Below, in pieces: positions 7,586 through 49,343 of a DNA stretch of 64,000 nucleotides. Under the pieces are notes generated by a model. It ran no database searches. It was not told where the DNA came from and saw only the letters and a program-made list of their open reading frames with translations. This DNA comes from Sphyrna mokarran (taxonomy: Eukaryota): contig JAGIQG010000020.1 of assembly GCA_024679065.1 (NCBI GenBank), forward strand, positions 13,144,001 through 13,208,000, in the 5' to 3' direction. Each line of letters opens with the position of its first letter. Within the stretch, counting starts at the first letter, position 1. The position numbers and the translations under genes were made by a program.

Positions 7586-7790
7586 GGCAAAATTCTGCGG
7601 GTGCCAGAAATCTAAAGTAAAAACAGAAAATTGTGGAAAATCTCAGCAGGTCTGGCAGCATCTACGGAGAGAGAAACAGAGTCAATATTTCAAGTCCATG
7701 CGATGAGTCACGTGGACTCGAAACGTTAACACTATTTCTCTCTCCGCAGATGCTGCCACTTCTGAGTCTTTCCAACATTTTCTGTTTTTT
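7586..7790. mobile_element. Second palindromic Penelope-like family; other pieces near 8147-8352, 42525-42610, 51625-51690, 53870-53962 and 57300-57365
   Basis: Inverted arms aaaacagaaaattgtggaaaatctcagcaggtctggcagcatct / agatgctgccacttctgagtctttccaacattttctgtttt. Centre reads gagtc-acgtg-gactc-gaaacgtt. Confidence 0.6.
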
Positions 7791-12799: not shown

Positions 12800-13355
12800 T
12801 AGGAATAGAAAGTAGAAGCAAGAGTCAGCTATTCGGCCCTTTTCTTTACATGGGACTTTTTCCATCCATCACGATCGCGGCTGACCACCAAATTCAATAT
12901 CCAGGTCCCTGCTTCACCCTCATACCCCTTTAGCCCCAAGAGTGATATCTAATTTCTTCTTGAAATCACCTGATGTTTTGATTTCAACTACTTTCTGTGG
13001 TAGTGAATTCCACACCACTCCCCTGGGTGAAGAGATTTCTCCTCATCCCATTTCTAAAAGGTTTACCCCTTATCTTCAAACTATGATCCCTAGTTCTGGA
13101 CTCCCTCGCTATTGGGGACATTCAATCTGAATCGACCCTGTCTAATCCTGTTAGAATTTTACAAGTTTCGATGAGATCCCATCTCAGTCTTCTAAACACC
13201 AATGATTACAATCCTAACCGACTTAGTCTCTCCTCATATGACAGATTTGCCATTCCCGGAAATCAGCCTGGTAAACCTTCGCTGTACTTCCTCTACAGCA
13301 AGGACAGCCTTCCACTGATGAGATCTCCAAAACTGCACACAATACCAGGCCTCAA
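12800..13355 (-). mobile_element. Decayed CR1 LINE 3' fragment
   Basis: Reverse-strand similarity to the CR1 3' copies at 44680-45220 and 43345-43870. Confidence 0.75.
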
Positions 13356-19775: not shown

Positions 19776-22700
19776 TTCAGATATGGCCCTATGGTTGGAT
19801 GAAGTACACTAAATTTCATTTTGTGATGGTCTGTTTGCTTCAAACTCCAGCCAGCGCACATCCTTATTTCTTAATTCTCATTCTTTTTCTGTATCAATGT
19901 TTGGAAATCCCAAAATAGAAAATCTAATGTAATGCAAGGGTAAAACCATGATCAAGCAGCTGATTTGCCCAGGACGAGGCTATTCCATTGCACTGTGGGT
20001 ATGCTGATGCCTGCGATGTCCCCAAATGCGGGATACTCAAATTCTGGGGCATGATTTGTTTAGCTTACTAGTGTGTGACAGAAAGTAAACAAATAGTTGA
20101 AGAAATCACTGCAGGATACAAAAGTCTTGTCAACATTGAGGATTCATGAGGCACTGGTCTTCACCTGGAAATTCTGCTTGCTGCAGCAACACCTATGCTA
20201 AAGCTGGAACAATACAAAGAGGTCTTGCTTAAAAAAAGATAGTCGATGTTGAAACTTTCTGTATTGCACTCATCATGGCAATTTGCAAGAACATATCCAT
20301 GGTCAAGTTTTTCATTGGTGTCACAAATAGGCTTACATTAACACTGCAATAAAGTTACTGTGAAAATCCCCTAGTTGCCACACTTTGGCACCTGTTGGAG
20401 TATACTGAGGGAGAATTTATCGTGGCCAATGCACCTAACCAGCACATACTGGGATCAACGACAACTTTATACTTTGTAGAAGAGAGATCTGATGGATTGG
20501 CAAGTGGATTCACATTGATAGAGAATGGTCATCATGGAGAATGCAGCAGTTGACGTTTACTGACAGTTCCTGCTGGCTTGCCTTAATTAATTCACACATC
20601 TCCAACTGAGTATTCATATTGCTCCATATTATAATTTCTAAAAGATTTCCCACCACCAAGGTAAAATTGGCTGGCCTGTAGTTGCTCAGTGTATCCTCAC
20701 ACCACTTACTGAAAAAGGGTGTCACATTAGCAATTTTTCCATCCTCCAGCATCACACGTTGGTCCTTTTTTAAGGTCAAACCAAATAAACAAACTCAAAT
20801 TAAATAAGGCAAAGGGGCAGCTCCCCAGAAGGAAGGGGAACAGCCCGAACAAAAACAAATTATAAAGGAAACTTAGAAATGTCAAATTAAAATGTGATTA
20901 TTAGGATCGATAATGCACCCCAGGCCATGCGGTGCCCAACAGCATCACACACTGGTATCTCAGCAGAATTGGATGAATATGGCCAGCTCCTCCTCAATTT
21001 TCACATTTACTTCCCGCAGTAACTCAAATGCAACTCAACTGGTCCTGGTAACCTCTCCACATTAAGTAGTCAGTTGTTTTAATACATTCTTTTAATTAAT
21101 ATTAGTCCATCTAATAACTCAAGCATTTCCTGTTTCACTACAACTTAGGCAACATCTTTTTTCTTGATAAAGATAGATAAAGTATTCATTAGTTTCTCAG
21201 CTACATGCTTCACTTTCACGCATAAATTCTCTATTTGGTCCCTAATCAGCTCCCCTCACCCTTCTTTACTGCAAAAGATGAGACTGAAACATTTTCAAAT
21301 ATTTTTAGACGGAAGTACTGAGTGGATGATCCATCTTGGCTGCCTCTTGATGATCACAGAAGCCAGTATTCAGCCAATCTGACTGACTCCAAGTGATATC
21401 AAGAAATGACTGAATGCTTTGGACTATGGACCCTAACAAAGTCCTAGCTGTAGTACTAAAAATTTGTCCTGTAGAGCTAGCTGCACCTCCAGCCAAGTCA
21501 TTCCAGAGGTTTCAATCCTGAAATCTGCCTCACACAGTGGAAAAATCATTCCAATATGTCTGAGTCACAAAAAGCAAGACAAATCTATTCCAACCTATTG
21601 CCACCACATCAGATCATAATAAAGGAGTAGGCTATTTGGCCTTTTGAGCCAGCTCCAACATTCAATAAGATCGTATCTGATCTTCTTACTGCATACTTTT
21701 CCATTCTATCCCTTCATTCCTCGATTTCCTTAGTATCCAAAAATCTATCGATATTTACTTTTATAATACTCAAGCCACTTTCATCCACAGCTCTCTGTAT
21801 ATTCAGGAAGAAAATTCTCCTCATCTCACTCATCAATAACTCATGTCTTACTCTTGAGTCGTTGGGTCAAAATACTAATGGCATTGTGGGCCATCCCACA
21901 GCACAGGGACTTCTGCATTTCAAGAAGGCAGCTTACCAACATCTTCTCAAGGGTAACTAGGGATGGGCAATAAATACTGGACAGCCAGCAATGCCCATGT
22001 CTGATAAATGAGTTAAAAAATTGTAACCCCTAGTTTTAGACTTGGGAAATTATAATTTGCCTTTCTCAAACTTCTCTTAATTATCAGCAGAAAATCGAAG
22101 GATCATTGGCAATGCTATCAAACGGCATTTAATCACCAATAATCTGGACATGGGTGTCCAGTTTGGATTTCACAAGGACCATTCAGAATTTAGAATAGTT
22201 TGAAATCTTAAATCAGAAATGGCAATAAGAGTTGAATGACTGCCCTTTATATCAAGGCAGCATTTGACTGTGTCATCGAGGAGACCTATTAAAACTGAAG
22301 TTGATGTGAGCTGTGGGCCTCTTCACTAGCTGAACTCATACCTAGCATTAAAAAAAATGGATGTTGAAGATCTCAGCCTCAGGACTTCACTTGAGGAGTT
22401 CCACAGTGCAGCGTCCCAGATTCAACCATCTTCAGTTGCTTTCTTAAATATCCTCACTTATTATCAGGTCAGAAGTGGGGATGTTCATTGATTAATGCAG
22501 TACTCATCTTCAGTCGTAATACTTTAGATCAAGATGACATCCAATTTTATTCATCACTTTAAACATTTGCTTCTTCTTTCACCAGTGCACAAGGCCACAA
22601 TGTGTATCATCCATGTGATGAATCGCAGCAACTCATCATGCAGTCGTCAATGGAATCAGGGACCTCTATGGCCCCCAAGAAGGGAGGCAGTTGCATGGGA

Positions 22701-29530: not shown

Positions 29531-30715
29531 GCCTTTCCATTGGCCCATTTGCAAAATCTACATCCAGTGTAAAGATGTTTAAAATTCATTTTACAGTTAG
29601 GGATGTGTGTGTGTATTGCTGGGTGGGCCAGCTTCTATTGTCCATCCTTAACTGCCCTCTGTCTAGAGGACACTTAAGAGTCAATCACATTACTGTGGAT
29701 CTGAAGTCACATTTAGGTCAGACTGGGTAAGGATGGCAGATTTCCTTCCTTAAAGGACATTAGTGCACCAGATGGGTTTTCCTGACTGTGGAAGGGGATT
29801 TTAGATCCACAGGCAGATTTTTAGTTTTAGTAACAGTTTGGTAGGAAAAAGTTAAAATGATTATCCAACAAGATAATGTTAATGGTTTGCTCATATGTGA
29901 ATGTAATAACAGATTTAAATAAATGAGACATGATTCCTAAAGTATTAAATATCTGTACATTGAAATATTAAGTGATTGTGCACTTTAACATATTAAGTGA
30001 ATTTTTACATATTAAGTGAATTTTTAATCGATGTAAATGTATTTGTTCGCCTCAGTCAAAAGTGCTACAGAAATAACAATATGAGTTCAGAAGTTCAGCA
30101 GTTAGAATCCATTAGACTATTCATTATAGTTTCAAATCCCAGGATAGTTATAGAAACATAGTGTATTAAATAAAAGGCATCTGTTGTCCAAACATGAAAA
30201 AGGGTCTTTCCATGGGCGCAAGGGTGATACTATCTGATTGTTTTGGCAATATGCCGATGGGAATGGAATTAGGATAGAGGCGTCCTTAGCAACAAAACAA
30301 GGAAGTGAGTCTTGACAATGGGAAGAAGTCTGGTATTAGACGGACAAACATTATGTCAAGTAGCATATCTCAATTGGCTAAAATAATCTGTCATGTTTTG
30401 GACTGACATGTTAACATGGAATGAAATTGAATCAAAGCTGATTAGAAGGAGTATCTTAGATAACAGTAGATATAATTGTATGTATTTTTGCTCAATGCCT
30501 CAGATCTTTGGAAGCATCTTGTAGCCCTGGCCCAGAGTATTCGACCATCTGAAGGCCTCCTAGCGGATATAGGTTAATGTTTTGTTTGTTTTGTATGATT
30601 TTTATGTTTTTTATAAAATAAATCTTAGTTATGTTTTGAGTAGAGACTTTCCCTTTGATACTTTTTAAGTAATTTTCAAGTTTTTTAAGAAGTTAGGTTG
30701 TCATCAAAGTGACAA

Positions 30716-31312
30716 TGTGGCACAGTGGTTAGCACTGCTGCCTCACAATGCCAGGGACCCAGGCTTGATTCCTGGTTTATGGGAATCCATGTGAAATTTG
30801 CTTCTCAGCCTTTTGGCTAAGATCAAGTGTAGTATCGACATGCTGTGCTTGGTTGAAGTTATTAGATTACGTTTTAGCTTCATTTGAAGCAATTTTTAAA
30901 AGCGGCATCTTGGCCTTTTGGCTAAGATGCAAATTAGATCAAGCCTTGGAGGAGAAGCTATATCTACTCCAATCAGCTTGGATCATGTAGATCAAGCTCA
31001 AGACAGAAGGTGAGAGCCCTGTCTTGTCAGCTTGTATCAGGAATGTCTCAACTTGTGGAGACTCTGAATTGGACTTGATTGGATTGAATTGGAATAAAAA
31101 GAAAAAAAAACTATATGGAATTTGCACATTCTGCCCATGTCTCCGTAGGTTTCCTCCGGGTGCTCCGGTTTCCTCTCACAATCCAAAGATGCACAGATAA
31201 AGTGCATTGATCATGCTAATTTCTCCCTTAGTGTACCCAAACAGGCACTGGAATGGCATTTAGGTGATTTTCACAGCAACTTTATTACAGTGTGAATGCA
31301 AGCCTATTTATG
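30716..31312 (+). mobile_element. HE1/V-SINE-like SINE hosting the U2-headed insertion
   Basis: Head gtggcacagtggttagcactgctgcctcac at 30717. Body resumes at 31111 (ggaatttgcacattc...ggtttcctccgggtgctccgg). Confidence 0.85.
30800..31110 (+). mobile_element. U2 snRNA-headed retroposon with A-rich tail and target-site duplication
   Basis: 30800-30836 matches U2 nt 4-40 at 36/37. A second U2 5' segment lies at 30905-30928. A-rich tail runs to 31110. Flanking 15-mers ccatgtgaaatttgc / ctatatggaatttgc match at 12/15. Confidence 0.8.
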
Positions 31313-31329
31313 AGCATACAGATAATCTA

Positions 31330-32210
31330 ACTAGGCAAGGGGTAATACTGACCTAGTCTTGGGAATGAGCATGGTCAGGTGGTTGATGTTTCAGTAGGGG
31401 AGCAGTTTGGGAACAGTGATCACAATTCAGTAAGCTTTAAGGCACTGATGGATAAAGATAAGTGTAGTCCCCAAGTGAAGGTGCTAAATTGAGGGGAGAC
31501 TAATTACAACAATATTAGGCAGGAACTGAAGAATGTAGATTGGGAGCAGATACTTGAGGGCAAATCAACATTGAGCATGTGGGAGACATTCAAGTGTAAG
31601 TTGATAGGAATTCAGGACCTGCACATTCCTGTAAGGATAAAGGATAAGCATGGCAAGTTTTGGGAATGTTGAATAATGAGAGATATTGTGAACCAAGTCA
31701 TAGAGAAAAAGGAAGCATTTATCAAGGCTAGGAGGCTGGGAACACACAAAGCAAGTGTGGAATGCAAGGAAAGTAGAAGGAAATTTGAGCAAGGAGTAAG
31801 AAGGGCTATAAGAGTGCACAAAAAGTCATTGGCCAGCAGGATTAAGGAAACTCCCAAGGCTTTTTACAAATATATAAAGAGCAAGAGAGTAGCTAGGGAG
31901 AGGGTTGGCCCAATTAAGGACAAGGGAGGGAATCTAGGCATGGAGCCAGAGGAAATGGGCAAGGTATTAAATGAATATTTTGTGTCAGTATTCATCAAAG
32001 AGATGGATGATGGGTCTGCGGAAGAGTGTGTAGATAGTTTGAGTTATGTTGAGATCAAAAAAGAGGAGGTATTGGGGCTCTTCAGAAACATTAAGATAGA
32101 CATGTCCACAGGATCTGATGGGATATACCCCAAAATACTGAGAGAGGCAAGGGAGGAAATTGCTGGGGCCTTGAGAGAATTTTTTGTATCCTCACTCGCT
32201 ACAGGGAAAG
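31330..32210 (+). mobile_element. CR1 LINE ORF2 internal fragment (endonuclease end and linker)
   Basis: ORF 31676..32269 contains IKETPKAFYKYIKSKRVARERVGPIKD...LNEYFVSVF...GSDGIYPKILREAREEIAGAL. An upstream degenerate LG.SDHNS motif lies near 31410. Confidence 0.9.
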
Positions 32211-40372: not shown

Positions 40373-40812
40373 ATCAGCAGACTCCAGTTATGTATGAACC
40401 GAGCAGCAAGAGGTGTAAATATGTGATAGTGGCTTGGCCACTTGCTTTATAGCCGGCTCAAATTTCCTTCCCATTCACTTCAATGGAAAAGAAAATGGCA
40501 GGGGGAGCAGTGAGTGTTTAACGGGCAGGCAATGCACTGGACTTCCAGCGACAAGGGAAGAGGCCAGCCCAGCATTCTATCTGACTCGACGTGAGCGATG
40601 CCACAGAAAATCTGCTGATTATGTAAGGCCTGTGCAACTGAATGAAGTAAGAGATTTAAGGTTTCAGTCTGTTCTGGGTTTCACTCTTTGGAGACTAAGA
40701 GGTCAAGGGTGAATCCTGAAGTAGGTGAGAAGACTGAACCAAGAAGAGTTACCCAGAAGCAAAGAGTAATATGGGACAGTAATTCCAGGCAGAATACTGA
40801 CTTCAGGTGGAT

Positions 40813-41790
40813 GCTCCTCAACGTTTTGGCTAAGATCAAGCGTAGGATCAAGCCCGAGGTCAGATGTAATGTCTTGTTAGCTTGGATCTTATATGTCTCT
40901 CCTAATGGGATTGTGAATTTGTTGCCTGTGAAATATTATGTACAGACACTTTGACCAGCTTATTACGGAGAACACATTTACTCAGGTACTCTTACTTTAT
41001 GAGACAAAGAATTGTGGTTTGAACTTAGCTTCATTGAAACAATTGCGAGTTAAAGAAACAACTCTTAATGAAATTAAGTTAACTTTTTCTCAAACTAGAC
41101 GGACTGCCTGAAAACACAAGCTAACCGTTCTGCTGAAGATGACAAGGCTGTTAGGGTGAATTCACTGAGTTTGTGTTGACAGATGAATTCAGGGATTTTC
41201 TTAGTATGAATGTAGACCTCGCACGTGCTCTTCCGTCGATTTGGATTGCAGTACGCTGGTCGAGAGCTCACTGCGGTTTTTCTTAAGATGTCTGTTTTCA
41301 TTCTCCTCTTTGAGCTCTTCTGGAAAGCTCTCTGGGTTGCAGCCAATGGGGATGACAGGGCAAGGGGTCTGTCATCCCCTGCCTTGTCATCCCTGTCTTT
41401 GGTGCAACCCAATGAGGTTAGGCCAGGTCATCTTAGGATACAAATCCCCTTCCAAGATATGGTTAATAGCAGGGAGTCTGACGGAACCTAGGGAATATAC
41501 AATCATAATGTCCTCTGACTGAGAACCTCCTGTTGGATTCTAGATCATACAGTTCCCCCATTGTTCAGGCCAAGCACCCCTCTTCAACATGCAAGACCTG
41601 GGCTGGTCCCTGTTGGGTTTTGACCTGCAGTAACCATGTCTGCATTTCATCAAGCTTTGTTTCTAGAAGCAGTTTAGCTGTATATTAAAGTATCCAATTT
41701 TATGTTGGTCCTCGTTACCCCGGCCATACATTGGATTCAATCTGAAGTTGTATTTTTTTTTGAGCAAGCGAGGAGATGGATTAAGGGCTG
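40813..41790 (+). mobile_element. Second U2-headed element, interrupted by an insertion of about 810 bp
   Basis: 40813-40849 matches U2 nt 4-40 at 31/37. Body is homologous to the 44512 copy up to about 40919 and resumes at about 41731 (ttggattcaat...gagcaagcgaggagatggattaagggc). Confidence 0.7.
40920..41730. mobile_element. Possible solo LTR inserted in the U2-headed element
   Basis: TG...CA-bounded 811-bp block, defined by its absence from the homologous copy at 44512-44670. No clean target-site duplication seen. Confidence 0.4.
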
Positions 41791-43344
41791 ATCCACTCTA
41801 CACCTTGGCTTTGTAACTCTGAGAAAGGAATAACATTTAAAAAGTAGAAATCATAGAATCCCTACAGTATAGAAAGAGGCCACTCGACCCATTGAGTCTG
41901 TACCGACTACAATCTCATCCAGGCCCTACTCCCATATCTATCCACTAATCCCACTACCTACACATTCAGGACACAAATGGCAATTTTTTTTTAAGCATGG
42001 CCATCTAACCTTATCTGCACATCTTTGGACTGTGGGAGGAAACCAGAACACTTGGAGAAAACCCAGCCAGACATAATGAGAAAATGCAAACTCCGCATAG
42101 ACAGTGACCCAAACCAGGAATCGAACCCAGGTCCCTGGAGCTATGAAACAGCAGTGCTAACCACTGTGCTACGCACTTCAGGGAGACGTGAGCACTGGCT
42201 GGCCCAGTGTACGGATACAGTGCACAAGATGAATTCATGGAAACAAAGCCAGTTACTGCTTGAGAGACTGTGGAGACTAAAGCTGAATTGTACAGTTAAT
42301 GCATTAATATTTAATAGACATTGAGCAACAAAAACATAACTTGCAGTTTGAAGTAACTAATTAGATGCAATTCCCAGTATGCACTGTAGTAATGTGTAGT
42401 TCACAGCAAATATTTCGATGTTTAACTTGTCCAGTACAACTTGTAACAACTTTCATGTTTGCTGTATTGTCTGCTCTGCGTATATAATCACTGATAGGTC
42501 AGGTACTTCCCATAAATAACAGTAAAACATGCTGGAAATATGTGGTAGGACTGGCAGCAATTGTAGACAGAAACAGAGTTGACATTTCAGGTCTCTTTCA
42601 CCAGAACTGGGACAAGTCTGAATGTAATGAAAAAGAAGAAATGTGGGCTCATGTAATAATAACCAGACAATTTATTTTAGTGACATTAGTTAAGAAGTAA
42701 ATGTTCCTCATGTAGCCTGGTTTTATTGTCAATGAACTGGCAATCCATAAAGCTAGGGCAATGATCTGGGGTCCTGGGCTTGAATCCCACCATGGTAGAT
42801 GGTCGAATTTGAACCTAAGGTCCTGAGGAGAACTTTTCTTTGATCAATGCTGTGGAATTTTTTAGATTTACCTGAGCAGCAGGCAAATTTCAATTTAATC
42901 TTTTGTCCAAAGGAAAGAAAGTGGGGTCATTTTTAACATTGTCACTAAGACAGTAAACAGGCAGTGCTGATTTCCCATTCAATTCCCAATCCGGGGGATT
43001 TGTTGTCTTTTTGGTCTTCCATAGATAACCAGATTCCTAATGGAACAAAACTTCAGGGCACTAATTCTCAGCAAGTCATTCAGCAGCATCCGTGGAGACA
43101 GAAACAGATACTTAGGCCTGTTAGCTTCCATCAGAACTGGGAAAAACACAAGTGATTTTGGGCTGGTGAAATGGGATGGGAGGGGTGAGGAATAGTGGGG
43201 CGGGGGGGTGGGGAGAGGGGGTGAGATTGGGAAAAAGATCAAAAGGGAAAATCTGAGATAGGGTGGCAGGCAGGAAAAGTTCAGTTTCAAGACATTTCAT
43301 TGTATCTCCAATTGCTTGAATGATCCATCCACCCACGATAATAT

Positions 43345-44511: not shown

Positions 44512-44670
44512 GGCTAAGATCAAGCATAGGATCAAGCCCGTGAGCATGTGTGATGCCTGCTCTTGTCATCTTGGATCTTGTGTGTTTCTCTTTTGGGGAC
44601 CATGAATTGGATTCAATTTGAATTTGAGTTGGTTTTTGGAGCAAGCAAGGAGGTGGATTAAGGGCATTGG
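44512..44670 (+). mobile_element. Third, 5'-truncated U2-headed element
   Basis: ggctaagatcaagcataggatcaagccc...cttggatctt...gaattggattcaattt...gagcaagcaaggaggtggattaagggc, colinear with the 40813 copy. Confidence 0.7.
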
Positions 44671-44679
44671 TGAAGCCAC

Positions 44680-45220
44680 ACCTAGAGCACTGTGTGCAGT
44701 TTTGGTGTCCTTATCTGAGGAAGGATGTTCTTGCTGTAAATGGAAGACAACGAGTATTTCCCAGGCTGATTCCTGGGATGGCAGATCTGTCATATGAGGA
44801 GTGACTGAGTCAGTTAGGATTATATTCACAGGAGCTTAGAATGGTGAGAAGGGATCTCTTAGAAACATAAAATTCTGACAGGACTAAAGAGGGTAGAATC
44901 AGAAAGAATGTTCCCAATGGTGGGGAAGTCCAGAACTAGGGGTCATAATCTGAGGATAAAGGGTAAATCTTTTAGAACTGAGGTAAGGAGAAATTTCTTC
45001 ACCCAGAGGGTGACGAATGTGTGGAATTCACCACCATAGAAATTTGAGACCAAAACATTGTCTGATTTCAGGAAGAAATTAGATGTAGCTCTTGGGGCTA
45101 AAGAGATCAAGGGATGTGGGAGAAATTGGGGATCATGATCAAACTGAATGTCAATTTAAGCTCGAAGGGCTGAATAGCCTACTCCTGCCTTTAGTTTCTA
45201 TGTTTCTATGTTCCTATGAC
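44680..45220 (+). mobile_element. CR1 LINE 3' fragment
   Basis: Degenerate CVQFW.P.LRKD...FFTQRV..VWNS coding trace and a ttctatgt repeat tail. Confidence 0.85.
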
Positions 45221-49177: not shown

Positions 49178-49343
49178 CGAAATCTCACAACACCAGCTTA
49201 AAGTCCAGTAAGTTTACTTGTAGCAAACACCCTAAGCTTTCAGAACACATTGCTCCTGACGAAGGAACAACGTATTGCGAAAGCTTGGGGTGTTTGCTAC
49301 AAATAAACTTGTTGGACTCTAAGCTGGCGTTGTGAGATTTCTT
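49178..49343. mobile_element. Palindromic Penelope-like element nested in an HE1-like SINE (about 48925-49482)
   Basis: Inverted arms gaaatctcacaacaccagctta / taagctggcgttgtgagatttc. Contains ctgacga-aggaacaacgtattgc-gaaagctt. Confidence 0.65.

What the first reader, a model, noticed from the sequence alone, without database searches (positions are those of the whole stretch)
30787..31125. U2 snRNA-headed SINE-like retroposon with A-tail and target-site duplication
Seen: U2 nt 4-40 (including the branch-point pairing sequence GTAGTA), non-U2 sequence, a second U2 5' segment, hairpin-forming GATCAAGC...GCTTG(G/T)ATC units, AATAAA with an A-tail, and a 12/15 flanking duplication, all inserted in an HE1-like SINE. 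Known: snRNA-headed SINEs (SINEU) are described from crocodilians, and Keno (Tx1) and Utopia retrotransposons insert in this part of U2. Inference: an independent shark U2-headed non-autonomous family, perhaps born from a Keno/Utopia-interrupted U2 gene. The A-tail and 15-bp duplication suggest L1/Tx1-type rather than CR1 mobilisation. I do not know whether it is already catalogued.
Basis: partly seen in the sequence, partly recalled or inferred. Interest (0 to 1): 0.7.

Follow-up and report, generated by a model that had tools for sequence, protein, structure and literature searches.

The report
Jumping element built from splicing RNA
This is a short retro-inserted element, probably from a shark, built from a remodelled copy of the U2 splicing RNA with its intron-reading part disabled; it has two relatives nearby and resembles a kind of mobile element described from crocodilians.

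Summary
The insertion is real. A 311-nt element (30800-31110) with a U2 head, A tail and 15-nt duplication splits a tRNA-type SINE. Correction: the body is mostly not foreign. Its hairpin module is remodelled U2. A model built only from the four element hairpins finds real U2 genes at nt 22-52, the branchpoint stem-loop, and the relatives continue into the Sm-site region. The stem shows double-sided changes in 6 of 8 inner pairs (4 rows), while the branch-point hexamer is mutated or paired away wherever it occurs. Best reading: a SINEU-like, Pol II-type non-autonomous retroposon family of independent origin, moved by an L1/Tx1-type LINE (inferred). Untested: genome-wide copy number, expression, partner LINE, species, and Repbase/Dfam status. 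No shark report in six paper searches. The scan noted a different U2-derived element in another genome (e1-7834116).

The parts
30717..30801 (+). 5' part of the host SINE (HE1-like, label recalled)
   Evidence: 68 of 85 positions match the majority of 19 uninterrupted window copies
30787..30801 (+). Left copy of the 15-nt target-site duplication; its last two bases also read as U2 nt 4-5 (microhomology)
   Evidence: Same 15 alignment columns as the right copy, 12 of 15 identical, three shared departures from the majority
30800..30836 (+). U2 head 1 (U2 nt 4-40, stem I and intact branch-point hexamer)
   Evidence: 36 of 37 identical to U2 in L008; Rfam U2
30821..30854 (+). Predicted 15-bp hairpin that pairs the branch-point region of head 1 with a downstream arm (30840-30854)
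   Evidence: 15 of 15 positions pair, 9 Watson-Crick and 6 G-U; z -3.2, 2 of 200 shuffles
30855..30904 (+). Spacer of unknown origin with T4 and T5 runs
   Evidence: 30837-30904 shows no significant similarity to U2 or to the two relatives; T runs
30905..30930 (+). U2 head 2 (U2 nt 4 to about 28), changed into a perfect 11-bp hairpin; branch-point hexamer lost
   Evidence: (z -7.2, 0 of 200 shuffles)
30937..30984 (+). Hairpin module, first copy
   Evidence: Homologous to both relatives (0 of 500 shuffles each); structure
30990..31038 (+). Hairpin module, second copy; the inner stem corresponds to the U2 branchpoint-interacting stem-loop
31045..31062 (+). Small 5-bp stem at the position of U2 stem IIb
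   Evidence: Fold (z -1.9, weak); 31019-31083 aligns to U2 nt 40-107 (14 of 1000 shuffles)
31093..31110 (+). Poly(A)-signal-like hexamer and A tail, placed where 44512 has the Sm-site T run
   Evidence: tail 31060-31095 against 44512: 1 of 500 shuffles
31111..31125 (+). Right copy of the target-site duplication
31111..31330 (+). 3' part of the host SINE
   Evidence: 99 of 124 compared positions match the majority
40812..40919 (+). Relative 1, 5' part: U2 nt 4-40 head plus one hairpin module and stem IIb region
   Evidence: 31 of 37 to U2 head; 70% over 89 nt to the focal body, E 7e-6
41724..41815 (+). Relative 1, probable 3' part beyond an ~810-nt insertion: Sm-site T run and stem III-like U2 sequence
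   Evidence: Aligns to U2 nt 71-160, 0 of 1000 shuffles; 83% over 66 nt to 44600-44665
44512..44666 (+). Relative 2: starts at U2 nt 19, one hairpin module, Sm-site T run, part of stem III; abuts a CR1-like repeat
   Evidence: Body aligns to U2 nt 41-144, 0 of 1000 shuffles; 69% over 123 nt to the focal body, E 2e-10

Best explanation
The element is one retrotransposed copy of a short non-autonomous retroposon family that evolved from a U2 snRNA gene, working like crocodilian SINEU but probably arising independently. Shown: retro-insertion hallmarks; three related loci in 64 kb; U2 origin of head and body; a shared hairpin. Inferred history: a U2 copy duplicated about nt 23-40. The extra strand paired with the remodelled stem IIa region, and the weak branchpoint stem-loop became a stable inner stem whose loop, the former branch-point reader, drifted (form seen at 40812 and 44512, which keep the Sm-site region). 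A derived subfamily (the focal copy) lost everything from the Sm site on, gained a poly(A) signal and A tail, doubled the module, and added a fresh U2 5' end plus an arm that pairs with its branch-point hexamer. Inferred mechanism: Pol II transcription from outside promoters (a U2-type upstream promoter or read-through), polyadenylation, then target-primed reverse transcription by an L1/Tx1-clade LINE. The hairpins are kept because the RNA needs them for stability or RNP loading, and branch-point pairing is disabled because a U2 mimic that can still read introns would be harmful.
For: TSD and A tail. Body shared with two U2-headed loci whose flanks do not match each other or the focal left flank. 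U2 origin of the body: 0 of 1000 shuffles for 44530-44690 and 41724-41820. Model R1, built from four element hairpins only, scores 15.9-17.8 bits on U2 nt ~22-52 in 36 of 40 U2 loci, against at most 11.3 bits for background in the window; these U2 stretches are nearly identical, so this counts as one observation. Inner stem: 6 of 8 pairs change on both sides, 95% of cells pair, 0 of 500 shuffles, slid controls 29-40%; RNAalifold finds the same helix. The two focal modules are only 32 of 55 identical yet keep the stem, which decay after insertion would not produce. Four T4/T5 runs argue against Pol III, as reported for SINEU (PMC4494074). SINEU-3 keeps U2 nt 1-32 and deletes the next ~50 nt, which removes the same hexamer (nt 33-38).
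Against: Only one copy of the focal subfamily is known: 30837-30904 has no match in either relative. No TSD was found for either relative, and neither shows a clear A tail. All three loci lie within 14 kb on one strand, so local clustering is possible. The covariation rests on 4 rows and on a structure I set from these sequences; quasi-palindrome correction could make double-sided changes without selection. The relatives as wholes fold no better than shuffles (z 0.3, -0.95, -0.3). Direct similarity of the focal module to U2 is weak alone (22 and 14 of 1000 shuffles; first module 195 of 1000). No partner LINE tail matches in the window.
Confidence: 0.7

Rival explanations
1. 3' end of a 5'-truncated Tx1/Keno-type LINE whose 3' UTR contains captured U2 sequence, with a U2 5' fragment joined on by template switching.
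For: Keno and Utopia are followed by U2 from nt 39 (PMC4640811; PMC6136364). Some crocodilian Tx1-Mar carry U1 or U2 heads (PMC4494074). The poly(A) signal runs directly into the A tail, as in L1-type elements (recalled).
Against: Two of three loci begin at U2 nt 4 and the third at nt 19, and none has coding sequence upstream that belongs to it. The duplication brackets only 311 nt. Head 1 is paired by an arm inside the element, which suggests it is part of the master.
Confidence: 0.1
2. One-off chimeric retrocopy: a LINE enzyme copied a rearranged family RNA and switched to U2 snRNA, so the focal architecture is not a family.
For: Head 1 is far closer to U2 (36 of 37) than head 2 or the relatives' heads. 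snRNA chimeras by template switch are described (PMC4494074 discussion). The spacer is unique in the window.
Against: The 15-nt arm pairs with head 1 at all 15 positions, and all 6 departures from the exact complement are G-U compatible. The two modules diverged from each other with the stem kept. Both need time in a transcribed master.
Confidence: 0.1
3. Processed pseudogenes of a host non-coding RNA gene (a U2 variant or U2-derived regulatory RNA) whose structure is under host selection.
For: Strong folding of the focal element (z -6.4; body alone z -3.65 against a background minimum of -2.6 in 39 pieces). The relatives keep an Sm-site-like T run. Rfam fits the focal element into the U2 architecture above gathering score.
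Against: Two architectures with only 60-66% identity in the module, three loci in 64 kb, an A tail, and no intact accessible branch-point reader. The Rfam score comes mainly from the head.
Confidence: 0.08

Closest known systems
SINEU-1 (crocodilians; Kojima 2015, PMC4494074, main text read)
   Same: U2-derived 5' end, repeated U2 heads of different age, partial internal duplications, poly(A) tail, internal T runs, under 500 nt.
   Different: The SINEU-1 3' half is of unknown, non-snRNA origin; here the body is itself U2. The paper reports no SINEU outside crocodilians and describes no conserved hairpin. No sequence comparison was possible (figures and supplements not available).
SINEU-3 (same paper)
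   Same: Made almost wholly of U2; the branch-point hexamer is out of action (nt 33 onward deleted there).
   Different: Internal deletion there, internal duplication and remodelling here. SINEU-3 is 90% targeted to Mariner-N4_AMi; here 1 of 3 loci lies in the host SINE and no shared target is seen.
Keno (Tx1 clade) and Utopia (PMC4640811, PMC6136364; passages read)
   Same: They break U2 at nt 38/39, next to where head 1 ends (nt 40) and where the relatives' duplication lies.
   Different: They are autonomous, multi-kilobase elements inside U2 genes; no coding sequence or recognisable remnant is present here.
Tailless and chimeric U2 retropseudogenes (PMC5322556 passages; PMC4494074 discussion)
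   Same: Short U2 5' fragment with a target-site duplication.
   Different: Here there is an evolved, shared body and an A tail.

Membership tests
SINEU | 5' head derived from U1 or U2 snRNA | tested here: met
SINEU | Short (under 500 nt), non-coding | tested here: met
   311 nt between the duplications; no ORF of 120 aa or more overlaps it
SINEU | 3' poly(A) tail and target-site alteration | tested here: met
   Met for the focal copy; not found for the two relatives
SINEU | Many copies with one shared structure, not independent chimeras | tested here: inconclusive
   3 loci in 64 kb share head plus module; focal architecture seen once; no genome held
SINEU | Recurrent 5' addition of snRNA sequence | tested here: inconclusive
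   Two heads of different divergence in one copy; order of events inferred
SINEU | Internal oligo-T, so not Pol III-transcribed | tested here: met
   Four T4/T5 runs in the focal element; transcription itself not tested
SINEU | Shared target and mobilisation by a Tx1-Mar-type LINE | tested here: inconclusive
   1 of 3 loci is in the host SINE, which covers 8.8% of the window; no partner tail in the window
SINEU-1, -2 or -3 proper | Sequence homology of the body to the crocodilian consensus | not testable with these tools
   No Repbase or Dfam; the paper's supplements could not be read
Keno/Utopia-interrupted U2 gene | Retrotransposon sequence followed by U2 from nt 39 | tested here: not met
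   In the relatives the inserted ~25 nt is itself U2-like; no coding remnant. An erased ancient insertion cannot be excluded
Functional U2 snRNA gene | Intact stems IIa/IIb, Sm site, stems III/IV and upstream snRNA promoter | tested here: not met
   Identity to U2 stops at nt 40; upstream is the host SINE; ends in an A tail
HE1 / V-SINE (host element) | Sequence match to the HE1 consensus of sharks and rays | not testable with these tools
   Label recalled; PMC3747384 table lists HE1 for sharks and rays but gave no sequence; ARAGORN finds no tRNA gene in the window

The most novel reading that the evidence does not exclude
An uncatalogued, high-copy elasmobranch retroposon lineage made from U2, in which the branchpoint stem-loop was locked into a stable conserved hairpin and the branch-point reader repeatedly disabled. 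The RNA would keep enough U2 anatomy (stem I, locked stem-loop, Sm site in the older form) to use snRNP assembly or U2 proteins on its way to a LINE enzyme. Together with SINEU-3, this would show a convergent rule for turning a spliceosomal RNA into a parasite, and the transcripts could act as decoys for U2 snRNP proteins.
Probability: 0.2. Interest if true: 0.78.

Novelty: new variant of a known kind. Interest (0 to 1): 0.56.

Why it matters
In the papers searched, snRNA-headed SINEs are described only from crocodilians, and how they are transcribed and mobilised is stated there as an open question. A second vertebrate lineage with several subfamilies and a conserved RNA structure would show independent origins and give a comparative test of which U2 features such a parasite keeps (stem I, the stem-loop, sometimes the Sm site) and which it drops (branch-point pairing). 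If three loci per 64 kb is typical, it would be a major repeat that annotation may record as unknown or as U2 fragments.

Tried and rejected
No whole genome is held, and no read or contig depth was obtained, so copy number, presence or absence of the insertion in relatives, and expression stay open. A family motif found 0 matches in metagenome contigs; a second motif found 1 match in viral contigs, which shows no head or hairpin around it and is taken as chance. Rfam does not detect relative 2 (3 weak unrelated matches) or relative 1. Profile and covariance searches of the window find no fifth module. Pfam found nothing in 4 ORFs or in 8 read-through frames of the flanks and of the 40920-41729 insertion, so an L1/Tx1-like reading of 30250-30540 and the CR1 labels rest on recalled motifs. 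A 19-of-21 match of the spacer to 41025-41044 (E 0.2) is treated as chance. Pol III read-through from the host SINE was rejected because a T4 run lies 11 nt into the head. A ribozyme or microRNA reading has no Rfam support. Earlier-finding look-ups by sequence, place and words gave nothing in 4 of 5 calls. A Greenland shark preprint counts 1,221 snRNA loci (passage), which does not bear on copies below Rfam thresholds.

Full report
Observation. The described features are present. 30800-30836 matches U2 nt 4-40 at 36 of 37 positions against a vertebrate-type U2 gene fetched as L008, and it gives the window's only Rfam match at gathering score. A second U2 5' segment lies at 30905-30928, two hairpin units at 30937-30984 and 30990-31038, and a poly(A)-signal-like hexamer with an A tail at 31093-31110. 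The whole element folds far better than shuffles (z -6.4, 0 of 100).

It is an insertion. I aligned the two flanks with 19 uninterrupted copies of the host repeat from the window. The left flank ends and the right flank begins on the same 15 columns. They match at 12 of 15 and share three departures from the majority, carried by 3, 0 and 9 of the 19 other copies. That is a target-site duplication in a copy that had already mutated before the insertion. The host covers 8.8% of the window in 30 blocks. Its name (HE1) and the taxon (shark or ray) are recalled; a table in PMC3747384 lists HE1 for sharks and rays (passage), but I had no consensus to compare.

It has relatives. Two other loci share the body: 44512-44666 (69% over 123 nt, E 2e-10) and 40812-40919 (70% over 89 nt, E 7e-6) (0 of 500 shuffles each). 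Both begin with U2 5' sequence (nt 19 and nt 4). The second appears to continue at 41724-41815 beyond an ~810-nt insertion (83% over 66 nt to 44600-44665). Their left flanks do not match each other or the focal left flank. Against this: no target-site duplication was found for either, all three lie within 14 kb on one strand, and the focal segment 30837-30904 is in neither (290 and 408 of 500 shuffles). If two further loci per 64 kb were typical, the family would have tens of copies per megabase, but that is an extrapolation from one selected window.

The body is mostly U2. With the head excluded, 44530-44690 aligns to U2 nt 41-144 and 41724-41820 to nt 71-160 (0 of 1000 shuffles each), including the Sm-site T run and part of stem III. 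The focal second module aligns more weakly (22 and 14 of 1000) and the first module not significantly (195 of 1000), but both are homologous to the relatives. A covariance model built from the four element hairpins alone scores 15.9-17.8 bits on U2 nt ~22-52 in 36 of 40 U2-gene loci that I gave it, out of 132 fetched (rough E 0.015-0.05). Two more score about 10 bits and two do not score; background in the window reaches 11.3 bits. These U2 stretches are nearly identical, so this is one observation. It places the module's inner stem on the U2 branchpoint-interacting stem-loop, described as a weak, protein-supported helix with the branch-point reader in its loop (PMC13019295, passages). Only 30837-30904 is not recognisably U2. 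The focal A tail starts where relative 2 has the Sm-site T run.

Structure is kept while the branch-point reader is lost. Across the four modules 95% of cells pair, and 6 of 8 inner pairs change on both sides; 0 of 500 shuffles reach this, and slid controls give 29-40%. RNAalifold predicts the same helix with 4 double-sided changes. The two focal modules are only 32 of 55 identical. Caveats: four rows, a structure set from these sequences, related rows, and quasi-palindrome correction as a neutral source of such changes (head 2 is a perfected palindrome). The relatives as wholes fold no better than shuffles. The hexamer at U2 nt 33-38 is changed in head 2 and in both relatives' heads and in the module loops. 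In head 1 it is intact but predicted to be paired by a downstream arm, at 15 of 15 positions, 6 of them G-U.

Mechanism. Shown: retro-insertion, family links, U2 origin, predicted shared hairpin. Inferred: an internal duplication of about U2 nt 23-40, stabilisation of the stem-loop, then a derived subfamily that lost the Sm site, gained a poly(A) end, doubled the module and added a new U2 head. Four T4/T5 runs argue against Pol III, including read-through from the host SINE, so Pol II from outside promoters is likeliest. An A tail with a 15-nt duplication fits an L1/Tx1-clade enzyme (established knowledge); the partner was not found. That branch-point pairing is disabled to avoid harm to splicing is my hypothesis.

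Comparison with what is known. Kojima 2015 (PMC4494074; parts 1-4 of 5 read, supplements unavailable) describes SINEU only from crocodilians, with repeated U1/U2 5' additions, partial duplications, poly(A) tails, internal oligo-T and Tx1-Mar as the likely partner. SINEU-3 keeps the first 32 nt of U2 and deletes about 50 nt, which removes the same hexamer. The element works like SINEU; homology to SINEU-1/2/3 could not be tested. Keno and Utopia are followed by U2 from nt 39, and reptile Utopia makes 20-bp duplications (PMC4640811 section 6 and part 1 of 8 of supplement 1; PMC6136364 passages). That is compatible with the duplication seen in the relatives but not shown by it.

Novelty. Six paper searches listed no shark or ray snRNA-headed SINE; I read listings only, plus term look-ups in PMC5499810, PMC13343379, PMC5786205 and PMC10468316, none of which showed one. 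Repbase and Dfam could not be searched, and a repeat this frequent may be catalogued there. One earlier scan note (e1-7834116) describes a different U2-derived element lacking the branch-point region in another genome; it is unchecked and served as a lead only.

Verdict. A real element and a new variant of a known kind: a SINEU-like family probably of independent origin, with a remodelled-U2 body and a conserved hairpin. Confidence 0.7, interest 0.56.

Noticed in passing
L001-L003 (IMG/VR contigs of about 1.8 kb), around positions 395-440: Three circovirus-like contigs (Rep- and capsid-like ORFs converging; labels from recalled motifs) carry U2 nt ~8-42 just past the end of the capsid-like gene; L002 reaches the Rfam U2 gathering score. 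One paper search listed nothing on it.
   Followed up: partly
window 19938-20040: Isolated U1 snRNA fragment (model positions 16-119, E 9e-11, below gathering score) with no obvious A tail and no other copy in the window.
   Followed up: partly
window 40920-41730: About 810-nt insertion splitting relative 1; begins TG and ends CA, has an internal inverted repeat at 41325-41419, no second copy in the window and no Pfam match. Possibly a solo LTR.
   Followed up: partly
window 44660-45100: Relative 2 runs directly into a CR1-like repeat (80% to 12928-13341) with a few bases shared at the junction; could be a template-switch chimera or a later deletion.
   Followed up: no
window 30250-30620: Decayed reading frames that resemble the C-terminus of an L1/Tx1-type ORF2 followed by a T-rich 3' region (recalled motifs; no Pfam match).
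   Followed up: partly
window 49204-49316 and 7654-7757: Long inverted repeats giving weak microRNA-family matches below gathering score; probably small DNA-transposon remnants.
   Followed up: no
L105 and L117: Metagenome loci in which a U2 5' end is followed by non-U2 sequence at nt 40 (L105) or is tandemly repeated and truncated (L117).
   Followed up: no
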